Source of the DNA: Escherichia phage Lambda
Length of the DNA stretch: 48,502 bases
Sequence record: NC_001416.1
Strand: one strand, 5' to 3'
Positions 33,464-39,585 of this stretch are shown one piece after another. Position numbers and translations under genes: made by a program. Each line of letters starts with the position of its first letter. The stretch's first letter is position 1. The notes beneath the pieces were generated by a model. The model ran no database searches and had not been told where the DNA came from. It worked only from the letters and a program-made list of their open reading frames with translations.

Positions 33464-33535
33464 GGTGTGCTCCTTATTTATACATAACGAAAAACGCCTC
33501 GAGTGAAGCGTTATTGGTATGCGGTAAAACCGCAC

Positions 33536-33904
33536 TCAGGCGGCCTTGATAGTCATATCATCTGAATCAAATATTCCTGATGTATCGATATCGGTAATTC
33601 TTATTCCTTCGCTACCATCCATTGGAGGCCATCCTTCCTGACCATTTCCATCATTCCAGTCGAACTCACACACAACACCATATGCATTTAAGTCGCTTGA
33701 AATTGCTATAAGCAGAGCATGTTGCGCCAGCATGATTAATACAGCATTTAATACAGAGCCGTGTTTATTGAGTCGGTATTCAGAGTCTGACCAGAAATTA
33801 TTAATCTGGTGAAGTTTTTCCTCTGTCATTACGTCATGGTCGATTTCAATTTCTATTGATGCTTTCCAGTCGTAATCAATGATGTATTTTTTGATGTTTG
33901 ACAT
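33536..33904 (-). CDS. ea10: Ea10, SSB-like protein with acidic C-terminal tail
   Basis: ORF track 33536..33904 (122 aa). Confidence 0.85.
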   Translation of the reverse strand: MSNIKKYIIDYDWKASIEIEIDHDVMTEEKLHQINNFWSDSEYRLNKHGSVLNAVLIMLAQHALLIAISSDLNAYGVVCEFDWNDGNGQEGWPPMDGSEGIRITDIDTSGIFDSDDMTIKAA

Positions 33905-34086
33905 CTGTTCATATCCTCACAGATAAAAAATCGCCCTCACACTGGAGGGCAAAGAAGATTTCCAATAATCAGAACAAGTCGGCTCCTGTTTAGTTACGAG
34001 CGACATTGCTCCGTGTATTCACTCGTTGGAATGAATACACAGTGCAGTGTTTATTCTGTTATTTATGCCAAAAATAAAGGCCACTA

Positions 34087-34287
34087 TCAGGCAGCTTTGT
34101 TGTTCTGTTTACCAAGTTCTCTGGCAATCATTGCCGTCGTTCGTATTGCCCATTTATCGACATATTTCCCATCTTCCATTACAGGAAACATTTCTTCAGG
34201 CTTAACCATGCATTCCGATTGCAGCTTGCATCCATTGCATCGCTTGAATTGTCCACACCATTGATTTTTATCAATAGTCGTAGTCAT
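34087..34287 (-). CDS. ral: Ral, restriction alleviation protein
   Basis: ORF track 34087..34287 (66 aa). Confidence 0.9.
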   Translation of the reverse strand: MTTTIDKNQWCGQFKRCNGCKLQSECMVKPEEMFPVMEDGKYVDKWAIRTTAMIARELGKQNNKAA

Positions 34288-34481
34288 ACGGATAGTCCTG
34301 GTATTGTTCCATCACATCCTGAGGATGCTCTTCGAACTCTTCAAATTCTTCTTCCATATATCACCTTAAATAGTGGATTGCGGTAGTAAAGATTGTGCCT
34401 GTCTTTTAACCACATCAGGCTCGGTGGTTCTCGTGTACCCCTACAGCGAGAAATCGGATAAACTATTACAACCCCTACAGT

Positions 34482-35036
34482 TTGATGAGTATAGAAATGG
34501 ATCCACTCGTTATTCTCGGACGAGTGTTCAGTAATGAACCTCTGGAGAGAACCATGTATATGATCGTTATCTGGGTTGGACTTCTGCTTTTAAGCCCAGA
34601 TAACTGGCCTGAATATGTTAATGAGAGAATCGGTATTCCTCATGTGTGGCATGTTTTCGTCTTTGCTCTTGCATTTTCGCTAGCAATTAATGTGCATCGA
34701 TTATCAGCTATTGCCAGCGCCAGATATAAGCGATTTAAGCTAAGAAAACGCATTAAGATGCAAAACGATAAAGTGCGATCAGTAATTCAAAACCTTACAG
34801 AAGAGCAATCTATGGTTTTGTGCGCAGCCCTTAATGAAGGCAGGAAGTATGTGGTTACATCAAAACAATTCCCATACATTAGTGAGTTGATTGAGCTTGG
34901 TGTGTTGAACAAAACTTTTTCCCGATGGAATGGAAAGCATATATTATTCCCTATTGAGGATATTTACTGGACTGAATTAGTTGCCAGCTATGATCCATAT
35001 AATATTGAGATAAAGCCAAGGCCAATATCTAAGTAA
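34482..35036 (+). CDS. sieB: SieB, superinfection exclusion protein (membrane)
   Basis: ORF track 34482..35036; first ATG is at 34485; hydrophobic N-terminal segments. Confidence 0.85.
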   Translation: MMSIEMDPLVILGRVFSNEPLERTMYMIVIWVGLLLLSPDNWPEYVNERIGIPHVWHVFVFALAFSLAINVHRLSAIASARYKRFKLRKRIKMQNDKVRSVIQNLTEEQSMVLCAALNEGRKYVVTSKQFPYISELIELGVLNKTFSRWNGKHILFPIEDIYWTELVASYDPYNIEIKPRPISK

Positions 35037-35360
35037 CTAGATAAGAGGAATCGATTTTCCCTTAATTTTCTGGCGTCCACTGCATGTTATGCCGCGTTCG
35101 CCAGGCTTGCTGTACCATGTGCGCTGATTCTTGCGCTCAATACGTTGCAGGTTGCTTTCAATCTGTTTGTGGTATTCAGCCAGCACTGTAAGGTCTATCG
35201 GATTTAGTGCGCTTTCTACTCGTGATTTCGGTTTGCGATTCAGCGAGAGAATAGGGCGGTTAACTGGTTTTGCGCTTACCCCAACCAACAGGGGATTTGC
35301 TGCTTTCCATTGAGCCTGTTTCTCTGCGCGACGTTCGCGGCGGCGTGTTTGTGCATCCAT
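35037..35360 (-). CDS. N: N transcription antitermination protein
   Basis: ORF track 35037..35438; recognised 107-aa product MDAQTRRRERRAEKQAQW starting at 35360. Confidence 0.95.
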   Translation of the reverse strand: MDAQTRRRERRAEKQAQWKAANPLLVGVSAKPVNRPILSLNRKPKSRVESALNPIDLTVLAEYHKQIESNLQRIERKNQRTWYSKPGERGITCSGRQKIKGKSIPLI

Positions 35361-35518
35361 CTGGATTCTCCTGTCAGTTAGCTTTGGTGGTGTGTGGCAG
35401 TTGTAGTCCTGAACGAAAACCCCCCGCGATTGGCACATTGGCAGCTAATCCGGAATCGCACTTACGGCCAATGCTTCGTTTCGTATCACACACCCCAAAG
35501 CCTTCTGCTTTGAATGCT

Positions 35519-35549
35519 GCCCTTCTTCAGGGCTTAATTTTTAAGAGCG
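35519..35549 (-). promoter_or_regulatory. nutL: nutL (boxB hairpin gccctgaagaagggc and boxA cgctcttaa on the transcribed strand)
   Basis: Read as reverse complement at about 35519-35533 (boxB) and 35541-35549 (boxA). Confidence 0.85.
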
Positions 35550-35581
35550 TCACCTTCATGGTGGTCAGTGCGTCCTGCTGA

Positions 35582-35651
35582 TGTGCTCAGTATCACCGCC
35601 AGTGGTATTTATGTCAACACCGCCAGAGATAATTTATCACCGCAGATGGTT
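35582..35651 (-). promoter_or_regulatory. pL: pL promoter with operators OL1 (35591-35607), OL2 (35615-35631), OL3 (35635-35651)
   Basis: Three 17-bp tatcaccgc-type operators; -35 ttgaca and -10 gatact on the minus strand. Confidence 0.9.
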
Positions 35652-35824
35652 ATCTGTATGTTTTTTATATGAATTTATTTTTTGCAGGGGGGCATTGTTT
35701 GGTAGGTGAGAGATCTGAATTGCTATGTTTAGTGAGTTGTATCTATTTATTTTTCAATAAATACAATTGGTTATGTGTTTTGGGGGCGATCGTGAGGCAA
35801 AGAAAACCCGGCGCTGAGGCCGGG

Positions 35825-36259
35825 TTATTCTTGTTCTCTGGTCAAATTATATAGTTGGAAAACAAGGATGCATATATGAATGAACGATGCAGAGGCAATG
35901 CCGATGGCGATAGTGGGTATCATGTAGCCGCTTATGCTGGAAAGAAGCAATAACCCGCAGAAAAACAAAGCTCCAAGCTCAACAAAACTAAGGGCATAGA
36001 CAATAACTACCGATGTCATATACCCATACTCTCTAATCTTGGCCAGTCGGCGCGTTCTGCTTCCGATTAGAAACGTCAAGGCAGCAATCAGGATTGCAAT
36101 CATGGTTCCTGCATATGATGACAATGTCGCCCCAAGACCATCTCTATGAGCTGAAAAAGAAACACCAGGAATGTAGTGGCGGAAAAGGAGATAGCAAATG
36201 CTTACGATAACGTAAGGAATTATTACTATGTAAACACCAGGCATGATTCTGTTCCGCAT
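35825..36259 (-). CDS. rexB: RexB (membrane ion-channel component of Rex exclusion)
   Basis: ORF track 35825..36259 (144 aa); hydrophobic. Confidence 0.95.
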   Translation of the reverse strand: MRNRIMPGVYIVIIPYVIVSICYLLFRHYIPGVSFSAHRDGLGATLSSYAGTMIAILIAALTFLIGSRTRRLAKIREYGYMTSVVIVYALSFVELGALFFCGLLLLSSISGYMIPTIAIGIASASFIHICILVFQLYNLTREQE

Positions 36260-36274
36260 AATTACTCCTGATAA

Positions 36275-37114
36275 TTAATCCTTAACTTTGCCCACCTGCC
36301 TTTTAAAACATTCCAGTATATCACTTTTCATTCTTGCGTAGCAATATGCCATCTCTTCAGCTATCTCAGCATTGGTGACCTTGTTCAGAGGCGCTGAGAG
36401 ATGGCCTTTTTCTGATAGATAATGTTCTGTTAAAATATCTCCGGCCTCATCTTTTGCCCGCAGGCTAATGTCTGAAAATTGAGGTGACGGGTTAAAAATA
36501 ATATCCTTGGCAACCTTTTTTATATCCCTTTTAAATTTTGGCTTAATGACTATATCCAATGAGTCAAAAAGCTCCCCTTCAATATCTGTTGCCCCTAAGA
36601 CCTTTAATATATCGCCAAATACAGGTAGCTTGGCTTCTACCTTCACCGTTGTTCGGCCGATGAAATGCATATGCATAACATCGTCTTTGGTGGTTCCCCT
36701 CATCAGTGGCTCTATCTGAACGCGCTCTCCACTGCTTAATGACATTCCTTTCCCGATTAAAAAATCTGTCAGATCGGATGTGGTCGGCCCGAAAACAGTT
36801 CTGGCAAAACCAATGGTGTCGCCTTCAACAAACAAAAAAGATGGGAATCCCAATGATTCGTCATCTGCGAGGCTGTTCTTAATATCTTCAACTGAAGCTT
36901 TAGAGCGATTTATCTTCTGAACCAGACTCTTGTCATTTGTTTTGGTAAAGAGAAAAGTTTTTCCATCGATTTTATGAATATACAAATAATTGGAGCCAAC
37001 CTGCAGGTGATGATTATCAGCCAGCAGAGAATTAAGGAAAACAGACAGGTTTATTGAGCGCTTATCTTTCCCTTTATTTTTGCTGCGGTAAGTCGCATAA
37101 AAACCATTCTTCAT
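36275..37114 (-). CDS. rexA: RexA (sensor component of Rex exclusion)
   Basis: ORF track 36275..37114 (279 aa). Confidence 0.95.
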   Translation of the reverse strand: MKNGFYATYRSKNKGKDKRSINLSVFLNSLLADNHHLQVGSNYLYIHKIDGKTFLFTKTNDKSLVQKINRSKASVEDIKNSLADDESLGFPSFLFVEGDTIGFARTVFGPTTSDLTDFLIGKGMSLSSGERVQIEPLMRGTTKDDVMHMHFIGRTTVKVEAKLPVFGDILKVLGATDIEGELFDSLDIVIKPKFKRDIKKVAKDIIFNPSPQFSDISLRAKDEAGDILTEHYLSEKGHLSAPLNKVTNAEIAEEMAYCYARMKSDILECFKRQVGKVKD

Positions 37115-37226
37115 AATTCAATCCATTTACTATGTTATGTTCTGAGGGGAGTGAAAATTCCCCTAATTCGATGAAGATTCTTGCTCAATTGTTATCAGCT
37201 ATGCGCCGACCAGAACACCTTGCCGA

Positions 37227-37943
<717 letters not shown>

Positions 37944-37950
37944 TTAAATC

Positions 37951-38023
37951 TATCACCGCAAGGGATAAATATCTAACACCGTGCGTGTTGACTATTTTAC
38001 CTCTGGCGGTGATAATGGTTGCA
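37951..38023. promoter_or_regulatory. OR: Right operator: OR3 (37951-37967), OR2 (37974-37990), OR1 (37998-38014); divergent promoters pRM (leftward, leaderless cI) and pR (rightward)
   Basis: Three 17-bp operators between cI and cro; pR -35 ttgact 37988-37993 and -10 gataat 38011-38016. Confidence 0.92.
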
Positions 38024-38031
38024 TGTACTAA

Positions 38032-38241
<210 letters not shown>

Positions 38242-38248
38242 ATAACCC

Positions 38249-38280
38249 CGCTCTTACACATTCCAGCCCTGAAAAAGGGC
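38249..38280 (+). promoter_or_regulatory. nutR: nutR (boxA cgctcttaca, boxB gccctgaaaaagggc); tR1 lies just downstream
   Basis: Read by eye between cro and cII. Confidence 0.88.
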
Positions 38281-38359
38281 ATCAAATTAAACCACACCTA
38301 TGGTGTATGCATTTATTTGCATACATTCAATCAATTGTTATCTAAGGAAATACTTACAT

Positions 38360-38653
38360 ATGGTTCGTGCAAACAAACGCAACGAGGCTCTACGAATCGA
38401 GAGTGCGTTGCTTAACAAAATCGCAATGCTTGGAACTGAGAAGACAGCGGAAGCTGTGGGCGTTGATAAGTCGCAGATCAGCAGGTGGAAGAGGGACTGG
38501 ATTCCAAAGTTCTCAATGCTGCTTGCTGTTCTTGAATGGGGGGTCGTTGACGACGACATGGCTCGATTGGCGCGACAAGTTGCTGCGATTCTCACCAATA
38601 AAAAACGCCCGGCGGCAACCGAGCGTTCTGAACAAATCCAGATGGAGTTCTGA
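38360..38653 (+). CDS. cII: CII transcriptional activator
   Basis: ORF track 38300..38653; recognised start MVRANKRNEALRIESALL at 38360. Confidence 0.96.
   Translation: MVRANKRNEALRIESALLNKIAMLGTEKTAEAVGVDKSQISRWKRDWIPKFSMLLAVLEWGVVDDDMARLARQVAAILTNKKRPAATERSEQIQMEF
38369..38382 (-). promoter_or_regulatory. pRE: pRE -35 region with CII-binding TTGC-N6-TTGC repeats (leftward promoter overlapping cII 5' end)
   Basis: gcaaacaaacgcaa on plus strand = ttgcgtttgtttgc on minus. Confidence 0.75.
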
Positions 38654-38675
38654 GGTCATTACTGGATCTATCAAC
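38599..38675 (-). ncRNA. oop: OOP antisense RNA (about 77 nt, antisense to the cII 3' end)
   Basis: Established lambda feature; GC-rich hairpin plus A-run seen on the plus strand at about 38600-38630; ends not verified. Confidence 0.6.
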
Positions 38676-38685
38676 AGGAGTCATT

Positions 38686-39585
38686 ATGACAAATACAGCA
38701 AAAATACTCAACTTCGGCAGAGGTAACTTTGCCGGACAGGAGCGTAATGTGGCAGATCTCGATGATGGTTACGCCAGACTATCAAATATGCTGCTTGAGG
38801 CTTATTCGGGCGCAGATCTGACCAAGCGACAGTTTAAAGTGCTGCTTGCCATTCTGCGTAAAACCTATGGGTGGAATAAACCAATGGACAGAATCACCGA
38901 TTCTCAACTTAGCGAGATTACAAAGTTACCTGTCAAACGGTGCAATGAAGCCAAGTTAGAACTCGTCAGAATGAATATTATCAAGCAGCAAGGCGGCATG
39001 TTTGGACCAAATAAAAACATCTCAGAATGGTGCATCCCTCAAAACGAGGGAAAATCCCCTAAAACGAGGGATAAAACATCCCTCAAATTGGGGGATTGCT
39101 ATCCCTCAAAACAGGGGGACACAAAAGACACTATTACAAAAGAAAAAAGAAAAGATTATTCGTCAGAGAATTCTGGCGAATCCTCTGACCAGCCAGAAAA
39201 CGACCTTTCTGTGGTGAAACCGGATGCTGCAATTCAGAGCGGCAGCAAGTGGGGGACAGCAGAAGACCTGACCGCCGCAGAGTGGATGTTTGACATGGTG
39301 AAGACTATCGCACCATCAGCCAGAAAACCGAATTTTGCTGGGTGGGCTAACGATATCCGCCTGATGCGTGAACGTGACGGACGTAACCACCGCGACATGT
39401 GTGTGCTGTTCCGCTGGGCATGCCAGGACAACTTCTGGTCCGGTAACGTGCTGAGCCCGGCCAAACTCCGCGATAAGTGGACCCAACTCGAAATCAACCG
39501 TAACAAGCAACAGGCAGGCGTGACAGCCAGCAAACCAAAACTCGACCTGACAAACACAGACTGGATTTACGGGGTGGATCTATGA
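38686..39585 (+). CDS. O: Replication initiator O
   Basis: ORF track 38686..39585 (299 aa). Confidence 0.97.
   Translation: MTNTAKILNFGRGNFAGQERNVADLDDGYARLSNMLLEAYSGADLTKRQFKVLLAILRKTYGWNKPMDRITDSQLSEITKLPVKRCNEAKLELVRMNIIKQQGGMFGPNKNISEWCIPQNEGKSPKTRDKTSLKLGDCYPSKQGDTKDTITKEKRKDYSSENSGESSDQPENDLSVVKPDAAIQSGSKWGTAEDLTAAEWMFDMVKTIAPSARKPNFAGWANDIRLMRERDGRNHRDMCVLFRWACQDNFWSGNVLSPAKLRDKWTQLEINRNKQQAGVTASKPKLDLTNTDWIYGVDL
39034..39165 (+). repeat. ori: ori-lambda: four direct iterons (atccctcaaaacgaggg-like, about 39034-39118) followed by an AT-rich tract, inside the O coding sequence
   Basis: Four tandem 17-19 bp repeats and an A-rich stretch read by eye. Confidence 0.9.

What the first reader, a model, noticed from the sequence alone, without database searches (positions are those of the whole stretch)
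35825..37114. rexA-rexB abortive-infection module co-transcribed with cI, plus sieB nearby
Established knowledge: RexAB excludes T4 rII mutants and other phages, and SieB (34482-35036) mediates superinfection exclusion. Seen in sequence: rexB is hydrophobic (membrane) and both genes sit directly downstream of cI on the minus strand. These known defence genes show that this prophage already carries defence cargo.
Basis: established knowledge. Interest (0 to 1): 0.35.

Follow-up and report, generated by a model that had tools for sequence, protein, structure and literature searches.

The report
Phage lambda rexA–rexB exclusion genes
This is the textbook rexA–rexB gene pair of bacteriophage lambda, made together with the cI repressor in a lysogen and known since 1955 to block T4 rII mutants, so the finding is correct but ordinary.

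Summary
The window is bacteriophage lambda: 34300-38200 is 100% identical to lambda records. The interval 35825-37114 holds exactly two minus-strand genes, rexB (35825-36259, 144 aa) and rexA (36275-37114, 279 aa), directly downstream of cI (37227-37940). Pfam and PADLOC match RexA and RexB far above threshold. RexA is identical to the solved structure 8TWQ. RexB is strongly hydrophobic with four helices. No terminator-like site that holds up lies between cI and rexB. A significant hairpin plus T-run (T_IMM) overlaps the rexB stop codon. A promoter-like site in the 3' end of rexA fits the published P_LIT. sieB is a real SieB-family ORF at 34482/34485/34497-35036 on the plus strand.

The channel-based abortive-infection mechanism has never been shown directly. 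The known target range is very narrow. Recent work suggests the main role of Rex may be tuning the lysogeny-to-lytic switch.

Extra result: rexAB is a discrete swappable cassette bounded by the cI stop codon and T_IMM, replaced by unrelated genes in sister phages (already described by Degnan 2007). Novelty: already known. Interest: low.

The parts
36275..37114 (-). rexA coding sequence (279 aa, soluble, dimeric non-specific DNA-binding protein; the proposed sensor/activator)
   Evidence: ORF. Pfam PF15969, 326.8 bits. PADLOC RexA, 364 bits. 100% identical over 279/279 residues to PDB 8TWQ 'Protein rexA'. GRAVY -0.31.
35825..36259 (-). rexB coding sequence (144 aa, four-helix inner-membrane protein; the proposed effector)
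   Evidence: ORF. Pfam PF15968, 305.4 bits. PADLOC RexB, 202 bits. GRAVY 0.98 with about four hydropathy peaks. AlphaFold secondary structure H2-29, H41-66, H72-107, H114-142 (low-confidence model). No solved relative.
36265..36269 (-). Shine-Dalgarno AGGAG for rexB, 5 nt upstream of the ATG, within the 15-nt rexA-rexB spacer
   Evidence: Read directly from the sequence. The AGG core is invariant in the four homologs; the full AGGAG is present in the three closer homologs (alignment A1).
36315..36344 (-). Candidate P_LIT promoter inside the 3' end of rexA (TTGCTA - 18 nt - TATACT, with a TG extension). It would transcribe rexB alone.
   Evidence: Consensus scan, 9 of 12 matches. [quoted passage not shown] The -10 hexamer is kept in diverged homologs as TATACT/TATACT/CATACT/TATAAT, but this is not statistically separable from coding constraint. 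The start site was not verified here.
35797..35826 (-). T_IMM intrinsic terminator: an 8-bp G+C-rich stem, a 6-nt loop and a T-run, overlapping the rexB stop codon
   Evidence: Scan. RNA fold -21.2 kcal/mol, z = -4.27, 0 of 200 shuffles as stable. t_imm is used as lambda bases 35799-35824 in PMC3349717. A hairpin is kept after rexB in all four homologs, with a compensatory stem change in Hafnia phage yong1. It forms the left edge of the swappable cassette.
37227..37940 (-). cI repressor gene, the first gene of the operon
   Evidence: ORF. Pfam HTH_3 plus Peptidase_S24. Annotated as cI.
37947..37975 (-). P_RM maintenance promoter (-35 TAGATA, 17-nt spacer, -10 TAGATT). The transcript starts at the A of the cI ATG (37940), so the cI mRNA is leaderless.
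Evidence: Hexamers read from the sequence. Too weak for the consensus scan, which did not report it.
34482..35036 (+). sieB, a separate exclusion gene on the opposite strand, tail-to-tail with N. Start codon uncertain: 34482 TTG, 34485 ATG or 34497 ATG.
   Evidence: ORF. Pfam PF14163, 103.5 bits. PHROG 6399, 381 bits. Two hydrophobic segments at about residues 23-41 and 50-74. Alternative starts. No PADLOC model hit.

Best explanation
The interval is the rexA-rexB gene pair of bacteriophage lambda, the distal two genes of the cI-rexA-rexB immunity operon.

Shown here or in the cited papers:
- In a lysogen the pair is transcribed with cI from P_RM and ends at the intrinsic terminator T_IMM, which overlaps the rexB stop codon.
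- During establishment of lysogeny the pair is also transcribed from P_RE.
- rexB has a second promoter, P_LIT, inside the 3' end of rexA.
- RexA is a soluble dimer with an RdgC-like fold that binds DNA non-specifically.
- RexB is a 16-kDa inner-membrane protein with four helices.
- The two proteins interact, and together they stop T4 rII mutants and a few other phages from growing.

Inferred (the classical model, not directly demonstrated): an infection-specific trigger makes RexA activate RexB. RexB then dissipates the membrane potential, ATP falls, macromolecular synthesis stops, and the infection aborts with growth arrest or death of the cell. The outcome depends on the RexA:RexB ratio. 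Excess RexB made from P_LIT after induction would keep lambda from triggering its own system.

Independently of RexB, RexA also binds CI and biases the CI/Cro switch towards lytic growth. The pair therefore has both a defence role and a developmental role.

sieB, 0.8 kb away on the other strand, is a separate single-gene exclusion function.
For: Identity: 100% DNA identity to lambda records annotating the same genes. Pfam, PADLOC and PHROG hits are far above threshold. RexA is identical to PDB 8TWQ.

Operon structure: same strand, gaps of 112 and 15 nt, and no convincing terminator before T_IMM. T_IMM folds at -21.2 kcal/mol, z = -4.27, and its coordinates match PMC3349717. A promoter-like site lies in the 3' end of rexA, where the literature places P_LIT.

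Conserved pairing: three diverged homologs (76%, 72% and 46% RexA identity) in Klebsiella, Hafnia and Salmonella phages all keep the order repressor -> rexA -> rexB -> terminator.

RexB as a membrane protein; four transmembrane segments and inner-membrane location per PMC11077077.

Function: T4 rII exclusion by cloned rexAB was re-validated in PMC8594841. The depolarisation model and stoichiometry dependence are in PMC12894663 and PMC8585504.
Against: No direct demonstration that RexB is a channel appears in the papers read. RexB has no solved structure. My model is low confidence (pLDDT 61) and has no significant fold match.

RexA mutants with abolished, reduced or enhanced DNA binding all lose exclusion, so DNA sensing is not established as the trigger. 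Cell death versus reversible arrest is disputed.

The target range is very narrow: 2 or 3 phages of the BASEL collection and no wild-type T-even phage. Two groups suggest that exclusion is a by-product.

The P_LIT position given here is only a consensus match, and its conservation cannot be separated from coding constraint.
Confidence: 0.9

Rival explanations
1. The selected function of RexA/RexB is developmental rather than defensive. RexA binds CI and DNA to stabilise the lytic state after induction, RexB counteracts RexA and stabilises the replication protein O, and exclusion of T4 rII is a side effect of Rex proteins on host energetics.
For: [quoted passage not shown] The target range is poor, and the BASEL authors make the same suggestion. 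The conserved position immediately after a repressor gene in four repressor types fits a link to the switch. RexB also inhibits ClpXP/ClpAP proteolysis of O, Phd and MazE.
Against: In sister phages with the same lambda-type cI, the slot holds unrelated cargo (an NYN protein, a 345-aa protein, two small ORFs). The switch therefore works without Rex, and the slot behaves like a general accessory-gene site. Distant Rex-like pairs in Mycobacterium, Gordonia and Pseudomonas prophages give broad defence. The two roles are not mutually exclusive.
Confidence: 0.3
2. RexB is a member of the MotA/TolQ/ExbB family of proton-channel stator proteins, as some RefSeq and GenBank records name it ('biopolymer transporter ExbB').
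For: Database names only: H34; P0003, P0008, P0010, P0021.
Against: No MotA_ExbB Pfam hit for four diverse RexB proteins, even at E <= 10, and no NCBIfam hit. In the Foldseek search, MotA, TolQ and ExbB chains appear only at E > 1, with TM-scores of 0.17-0.32 and rmsd of 24-28 A. The model is poor, so this last point is weak. RexB is 144 aa with four helices joined by short loops. From general knowledge, ExbB-family proteins have three transmembrane helices plus a large cytoplasmic domain.
Confidence: 0.03
3. The ORFs are chance reading frames or inactive remnants in this copy.
For: None.
Against: Full-length matches to the family profiles. 100% identity to the crystallised protein and to lambda genomes. 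Intact start, Shine-Dalgarno sequence and stop.
Confidence: 0

Closest known systems
Bacteriophage lambda RexA/RexB (Pfam PF15969/PF15968; PADLOC RexA/RexB; PDB 8TWQ)
   Same: This is the reference system itself: identical sequence, coordinates, operon context, promoters and terminator.
   Different: Nothing.
Rex-like two-gene systems of other prophages (Mycobacterium phage Sbash gp30/31, Gordonia phage CarolAnn gp44/43, Pseudomonas putida P1 RexABpp, Mycobacterium phage Butters gp30/31)
   Same: A soluble DNA-binding RexA-like protein plus a small membrane protein, encoded next to the repressor and expressed from the prophage, giving defence with growth arrest or membrane damage.
   Different: They are too diverged to appear in my sequence searches. 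Only 23 RexB clusters and 17 phage records were found at sequence level, nearly all from Enterobacterales or their phages. Their triggers differ, and in Butters the roles of the two proteins are reversed.
BstA and other cargo in the cI-to-N slot of lambdoid prophages
   Same: Same genomic slot, expressed from the repressor promoter in lysogens. BstA has an abortive-infection phenotype.
   Different: Unrelated proteins. BstA is a single protein that acts at sites of phage DNA replication and has a DNA-encoded self-immunity element. Rex is a two-protein, membrane-directed system.
P22/lambda SieB (Pfam PF14163)
   Same: The neighbouring gene at 34482-35036 is lambda SieB itself: prophage-expressed, with two hydrophobic segments.
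   Different: Separate transcription unit on the opposite strand, a single gene, and an independent cassette that is absent from ev099, HK544 and SfI. It is not part of the rex operon.

Membership tests
RexA (PF15969 / PADLOC RexA) | Sequence match to the family profile above the curated threshold | tested here: met
   Pfam 326.8 bits against a cut-off of 25. PADLOC 364 bits. PHROG 12654, 542 bits.
RexA (PF15969 / PADLOC RexA) | Two-domain RdgC-like dimer that binds DNA non-specifically | tested here: met
   279/279 residues identical to PDB 8TWQ, whose structure and DNA binding are described in PMC11077077. D215 and R219, which were mutated in that study, are invariant in four homologs. The biochemistry itself was not repeated here.
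RexA/RexB system | rexA immediately followed by rexB on the same strand, downstream of the prophage repressor | tested here: met
   cI, 112-nt gap, rexA, 15-nt gap, rexB. The same order is found in Klebsiella, Hafnia and Salmonella phage homologs.
RexB (PF15968 / PADLOC RexB) | Sequence match to the family profile above the curated threshold | tested here: met
   Pfam 305.4 bits against a cut-off of 27. PADLOC 202 bits. PHROG 14878, 262 bits.
RexB (PF15968 / PADLOC RexB) | Small inner-membrane protein with four transmembrane helices | tested here: met
   GRAVY 0.98 with about four hydropathy peaks. Four helices of 26-36 residues in the AlphaFold model. Localisation itself comes from the literature.
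RexB (PF15968 / PADLOC RexB) | Ion-channel activity activated by RexA | not testable with these tools
   This is a model from physiology. There is no solved structure and no significant fold match.
Abortive-infection systems (functional class) | Infection triggers arrest or death of the infected cell so that no progeny phage are released | not testable with these tools
   T4 rII exclusion is confirmed experimentally elsewhere. Death versus reversible arrest is disputed.
cI-rexA-rexB (P_RM) operon | One transcription unit: same strand, no internal terminator, and a terminator after the last gene | tested here: met
   The only minus-strand terminator-like sites are T_IMM at 35826..35805 and a hairpin inside rexB (36216..36201) that has a poor T-run and is not conserved. 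T_IMM z = -4.27. Literature. The transcripts themselves were not measured here.
SieB (PF14163) | Sequence match above threshold; membrane-anchored N-terminus | tested here: met
   Pfam 103.5 bits against a cut-off of 26. PHROG 6399, 381 bits. Two hydrophobic segments. PADLOC returned no hit.
MotA/TolQ/ExbB proton-channel family (considered because of database names) | Match to the MotA_ExbB profile, or an ExbB-like fold | tested here: not met
   No hit at E <= 10 for four RexB proteins and none in NCBIfam. Foldseek finds these families only at E > 1 with TM-scores up to 0.32 (the model is of low confidence).

The most novel reading that the evidence does not exclude
The stretch between the cI stop codon (37227) and T_IMM (35826) is a plug-in expression slot. 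Whatever sits there is expressed from the repressor promoter and terminated by a shared terminator. If that is so, the unrelated and uncharacterised occupants in sister phages with the same cI could be undescribed prophage defence genes. These are an NYN-domain protein in ev099, a 345-aa protein in mEp332 and two small ORFs in HK544. Within lambda itself, the retention of a P_LIT-like -10 element in RexA homologs down to 46% identity would mean that extra RexB made from its own promoter is a conserved self-immunity switch that disarms Rex when the prophage goes lytic.
Probability: 0.3. Interest if true: 0.4.

Novelty: already known. Interest (0 to 1): 0.08.

Why it matters
Rex is historically the first phage-exclusion system, the basis of Benzer's rII fine-structure mapping. 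It is still mechanistically unresolved: the trigger is unknown, channel activity is unproven, and there is no RexB structure. As a genome-scan finding it adds nothing new, because the genes, their operon, promoters and terminator are all in the literature and in the deposited annotations. Its practical value is as a positive control showing that the scan recognises prophage defence cargo, and as a pointer to the repressor-downstream slot, where relatives carry uncharacterised genes.

Tried and rejected
1. Rfam scan of 33500-39000 at E <= 1 gave only one chance hit (rliG, 21.6 bits against a gathering score of 55). No known RNA family lies in the rex region.

2. A hairpin in the cI-rexA gap (GGGGAA...UCCCCU, about 37149-37166) is not more stable than shuffles (z = -1.4 to -1.8). 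I dropped it as a regulatory element.

3. A terminator-like hairpin inside rexB (36216..36201) is not conserved in homologs and has a poor T-run. I treat it as chance.

4. AlphaFold model of RexB from a 15-sequence alignment: mean pLDDT 61, pTM 0.44. Only the secondary structure is usable. The Foldseek search against the PDB gave 0 matches at E <= 0.001, so no fold assignment is made.

5. The 'ExbB' naming of RexB was tested by Pfam and NCBIfam at E <= 10 and by fold search. It is not supported.

6. Codon-level test for P_LIT: the invariant ATA Ile codon in the -10 element looked striking. However, ATA makes up 26-50% of Ile codons in these rexA genes, and 15% of amino-acid-invariant columns keep an identical codon in all four sequences. 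The result is not significant.

7. A loose consensus search for a sieB promoter upstream of 34482 found only 8-of-12 matches. No call is made.

8. Ranade & Poteete 1993 (PMC204922), the primary paper on lambda sieB and esc, is not held. Statements about lambda SieB and Esc therefore rest on secondary citations and on the family match.

9. Direct and inverted repeats in 35500-37300 gave only the three O_L operators (35591-35650) and short chance pairs.

Full report
**What the window is.** The stretch 34300-38200 is 100% identical over its full length to several deposited bacteriophage lambda genomes (OR974322, PV340536, KT232076, LC730321). The window length, 48,502 bases, is that of the lambda reference genome (general knowledge). 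The finding therefore concerns the immunity region of lambda itself.

**Checking the observation.** The mechanical ORF list gives these genes:
- a 144-aa ORF at 35825-36259 on the minus strand (rexB);
- a 279-aa ORF at 36275-37114 on the minus strand (rexA), so the two together span exactly the reported interval;
- the 237-aa cI ORF at 37227-37940, minus strand;
- a 184-aa plus-strand ORF at 34482-35036 (sieB);
- N at 35037-35438, minus strand.

The profile matches are unambiguous:
- Pfam RexB, 305 bits (cut-off 27); Pfam RexA, 327 bits (cut-off 25); Pfam SieB, 103.5 bits (cut-off 26); cI matches HTH_3 plus Peptidase_S24.
- PADLOC RexA, 364 bits, and RexB, 202 bits.
- PHROGs places all three in 'moron, auxiliary metabolic gene and host takeover'.

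RexA is identical at all 279 residues to PDB entry 8TWQ. RexB has no solved relative. RexB has a GRAVY of 0.98 with about four hydropathy peaks of membrane-span length, while RexA is soluble at -0.31. Two deposited annotations place rexB, rexA and cI at the same coordinates. The only imprecision is the sieB start, which is annotated as 34482 (TTG, the longest ORF), 34485 (ATG) or 34497 (ATG). None of the three has a convincing Shine-Dalgarno sequence.

**Anatomy of the transcription unit.** cI, rexA and rexB are on the same strand, separated by 112 and 15 nt. rexB is preceded by AGGAG, 5 nt from its ATG. The consensus scan found the following:
- P_L (35617..35589) and P_R (37988..38016);
- one promoter-like site inside the 3' end of rexA (36344..36315; TTGCTA, 18 nt, TATACT with a TG extension);
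- on the minus strand, a hairpin of 8 pairs (6 of them G-C) followed by a T-run at 35826..35805, overlapping the rexB stop codon.

That hairpin folds at -21.2 kcal/mol against -10.1 ± 2.6 for shuffles (z = -4.27, 0 of 200 shuffles as stable). It is T_IMM: PMC3349717 uses lambda bases 35799-35824 as 't_imm', and Thomason et al. describe T_IMM as the intrinsic terminator immediately downstream of rexB. The only other terminator-like site the scan reports on the minus strand between cI and T_IMM is a hairpin inside rexB (36216..36201). It has a poor T-run and is not conserved in homologs. The P_RM hexamers (TAGATA, 17 nt, TAGATT; 37975..37947) can be read directly upstream of the cI ATG. Their identity rests on established knowledge.

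The literature states that cI, rexA and rexB form the P_RM operon and that P_LIT, embedded in the distal end of rexA, transcribes rexB alone. It also states that the establishment promoter drives a cI-rexA-rexB transcript. The site at 36344..36315 is in the right place to be P_LIT, but I did not find published coordinates, so I call it a candidate.

**Related sequences.** Lambda-type rexAB is rare:
- The 1,290-bp pair is present in 99 of 5,426 complete E. coli genomes, always at 99% identity or more.
- RexA is encoded in only 17 of 50,697 phage records.
- RexB has only 23 clusters among 5.8 billion proteins. Every hit that carries a taxon name is from Enterobacterales, except one partial sequence labelled Acinetobacter.

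Three diverged RexA homologs keep the order repressor, rexA, rexB even though their repressors differ in length and type: Klebsiella phage ST101-KPC2phi6.1 (76% identity), Hafnia phage yong1 (72%) and Salmonella phage MS2 LVA (46%). An alignment of the rexA 3' end through rexB shows a terminator hairpin directly after rexB in all four. The Hafnia phage has a compensatory stem change (CCCGG/CCGGG becomes CCCCG/CGGGG), and the Salmonella phage has a different hairpin. The candidate P_LIT -10 hexamer reads TATACT, TATACT, CATACT and TATAAT. I tested whether this exceeds coding constraint. The Ile codon inside the hexamer is ATA in all four, but ATA makes up 26-50% of Ile codons in these AT-rich genes, and 15% of amino-acid-invariant columns keep the same codon in all four. 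The conservation is suggestive only.

**rexAB as a cassette.** Phages with a lambda-type cI carry different genes in the same place:
- ev099 has an NYN-domain protein (Pfam NYN, 36.8 bits).
- mEp332 has a 345-aa protein with no family hit.
- HK544 has two small ORFs with no family hit.
- SfI has rexAB.

Pairwise blastn places the homology breakpoints at 35824-35826 on the left, which is the rexB stop and the top of T_IMM. On the right they fall at 37192-37231, which is the cI stop at 37227. The shared terminator therefore belongs to the conserved flank, and the cargo is swapped precisely between the cI stop and T_IMM. This agrees with the 'hotspot of mosaic diversity' between cI and N that PMC8585504 and PMC7067206 attribute to Degnan et al. 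2007, so it is not new. rexA, rexB and sieB have G+C contents of 0.40, 0.43 and 0.39 against 0.50 for the whole genome, which fits accessory cargo.

sieB is a second, independent cassette. Against ev099, homology stops at 34481 and resumes at 35037, exactly the ORF ends. HK544 and SfI break slightly further out, at 34381 on the left and 35062 or 35104 on the right. mEp332 keeps sieB.

**How it most likely works.**

Shown in the literature for this exact system:
- RexA is a soluble dimer with an RdgC-like two-domain fold that binds DNA non-specifically.
- RexB is an inner-membrane protein with a predicted four-helix topology.
- The two interact in two-hybrid assays, and together they block T4 rII.
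- Exclusion depends on the RexA:RexB ratio, and excess RexB suppresses it.

Inferred (the classical model): infection activates RexA, which opens a RexB channel. Membrane potential and ATP then collapse, and the infection aborts.

Points that weaken the model:
- RexA mutants with abolished, reduced or enhanced DNA binding all lose exclusion.
- Cell death versus reversible arrest is disputed.
- Only 2 or 3 phages of the BASEL collection, and no wild-type T-even phage, are sensitive.
- I found no direct evidence for channel activity.

Independently of RexB, RexA binds CI and stabilises the lytic state after induction, and RexB counteracts this. RexB also protects the lambda O protein and some antitoxins from Clp proteolysis. 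I commit to the dual-function reading, with the membrane-depolarisation route as the most likely basis of exclusion. I put about 0.6 on that step and about 0.99 on the identity of the genes.

**A side test.** Several RefSeq and GenBank records name RexB 'biopolymer transporter ExbB'. If that were true it would tie RexB to a known proton-channel family. Four diverse RexB proteins give no MotA_ExbB Pfam hit even at E <= 10, and there is no NCBIfam hit. An AlphaFold model built from 15 homologs was of low confidence (pLDDT 61). Its Foldseek search returned nothing at E <= 0.001, with MotA, TolQ and ExbB chains only at TM-scores of 0.17-0.32. The name is not supported, and the fold of RexB remains open.

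**sieB.** The gene is real and belongs to the SieB family. It has two N-terminal hydrophobic segments and lies tail-to-tail with N with no spacer. For P22, SieB causes macromolecular synthesis to stop midway through the lytic cycle of superinfecting relatives, which is abortive-infection-like. An in-frame internal product, Esc, inhibits SieB. A weak PHROG hit to 'superinfection exclusion; inhibits SieB' covers residues 21-148. The primary lambda paper was not available.

**Verdict.** Both the observation and the interpretation are supported, and the feature is already known in full. Interest is low. The remaining open questions (trigger, channel activity, RexB structure, primary biological role) are experimental, and this sequence does not make them newly testable.

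Noticed in passing
window 35826-37226; loci L002 2194-3051, L003 2311-3348, L004 1778-2617: Sister phages with a lambda-type cI replace rexAB, exactly between the cI stop codon and T_IMM, with unrelated genes. ev099 has an NYN-domain protein, mEp332 a 345-aa protein with no family hit, and HK544 two small ORFs with no family hit. These are uncharacterised candidates for prophage-expressed functions.
   Followed up: partly
window 34381-35104: sieB behaves as its own cassette. Against ev099, homology breaks at 34481 and resumes at 35037, exactly the ORF ends. HK544 and SfI break at 34381 and 35062 or 35104. The sieB stop (35036) and the N stop (35037) abut with no spacer, tail-to-tail.
   Followed up: partly
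window 34482-34499: The sieB start codon is annotated three ways in public records and by the ORF tool: 34482 TTG, 34485 ATG and 34497 ATG. None has a clear Shine-Dalgarno sequence. In-frame internal ATGs at residues 93 and 111 are candidates for the Esc start.
   Followed up: partly
RexB homologs P0003, P0008, P0010, P0021; H34; L006 3356-3784: RexB is named 'biopolymer transporter ExbB' in several RefSeq and GenBank records. Neither profile searches nor a fold search support this, so it looks like a propagated misannotation.
   Followed up: yes
MW057783.1 (H6); P0021: A record called 'Campylobacter phage CJLB-4' is 99.9% identical to lambda over this region. A partial RexB, 100% identical, is attributed to Acinetobacter baumannii on a 251-bp contig (41 member sequences). 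Both look like carry-over of lambda control DNA into other projects.
   Followed up: no
V00639.1 (L009): The organism field says 'Phage 434' but the description says 'rex gene of phage lambda', and the sequence is lambda rexA/rexB. The organism label appears to be wrong.
   Followed up: yes
NZ_CM143910.1 (H35): E. coli strain E06 carries an IS1 element inside rexA, with rexA annotated in two pieces. This is a natural disruption of the system.
   Followed up: no
window 35519-35533: The scan's plus-strand 'terminator-like' hairpin GCCCTTCTTCAGGGC lies in the leader between P_L and N. From general knowledge this is the nutL boxB hairpin, not a terminator.
   Followed up: no
window 35591-35650: Three imperfect 16-nt direct repeats spaced 24 and 20 nt apart are the O_L1, O_L2 and O_L3 operator sites overlapping P_L (operator identity from general knowledge).
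   Followed up: no
window 33600-37200: G+C content is 0.37-0.45 across most of the ral-sieB and rexB-rexA stretches, rising to about 0.5 only over N, against 0.50 for the whole genome. rexA is 0.40, rexB 0.43 and sieB 0.39. This fits horizontally acquired accessory genes.
   Followed up: partly
window 37149-37166 (minus strand): A 6-bp hairpin (GGGGAA / UCCCCU, loop of 8) lies in the 112-nt cI-rexA spacer. It is not more stable than shuffled sequence (z about -1.4 to -1.8), so there is no evidence of function.
   Followed up: yes
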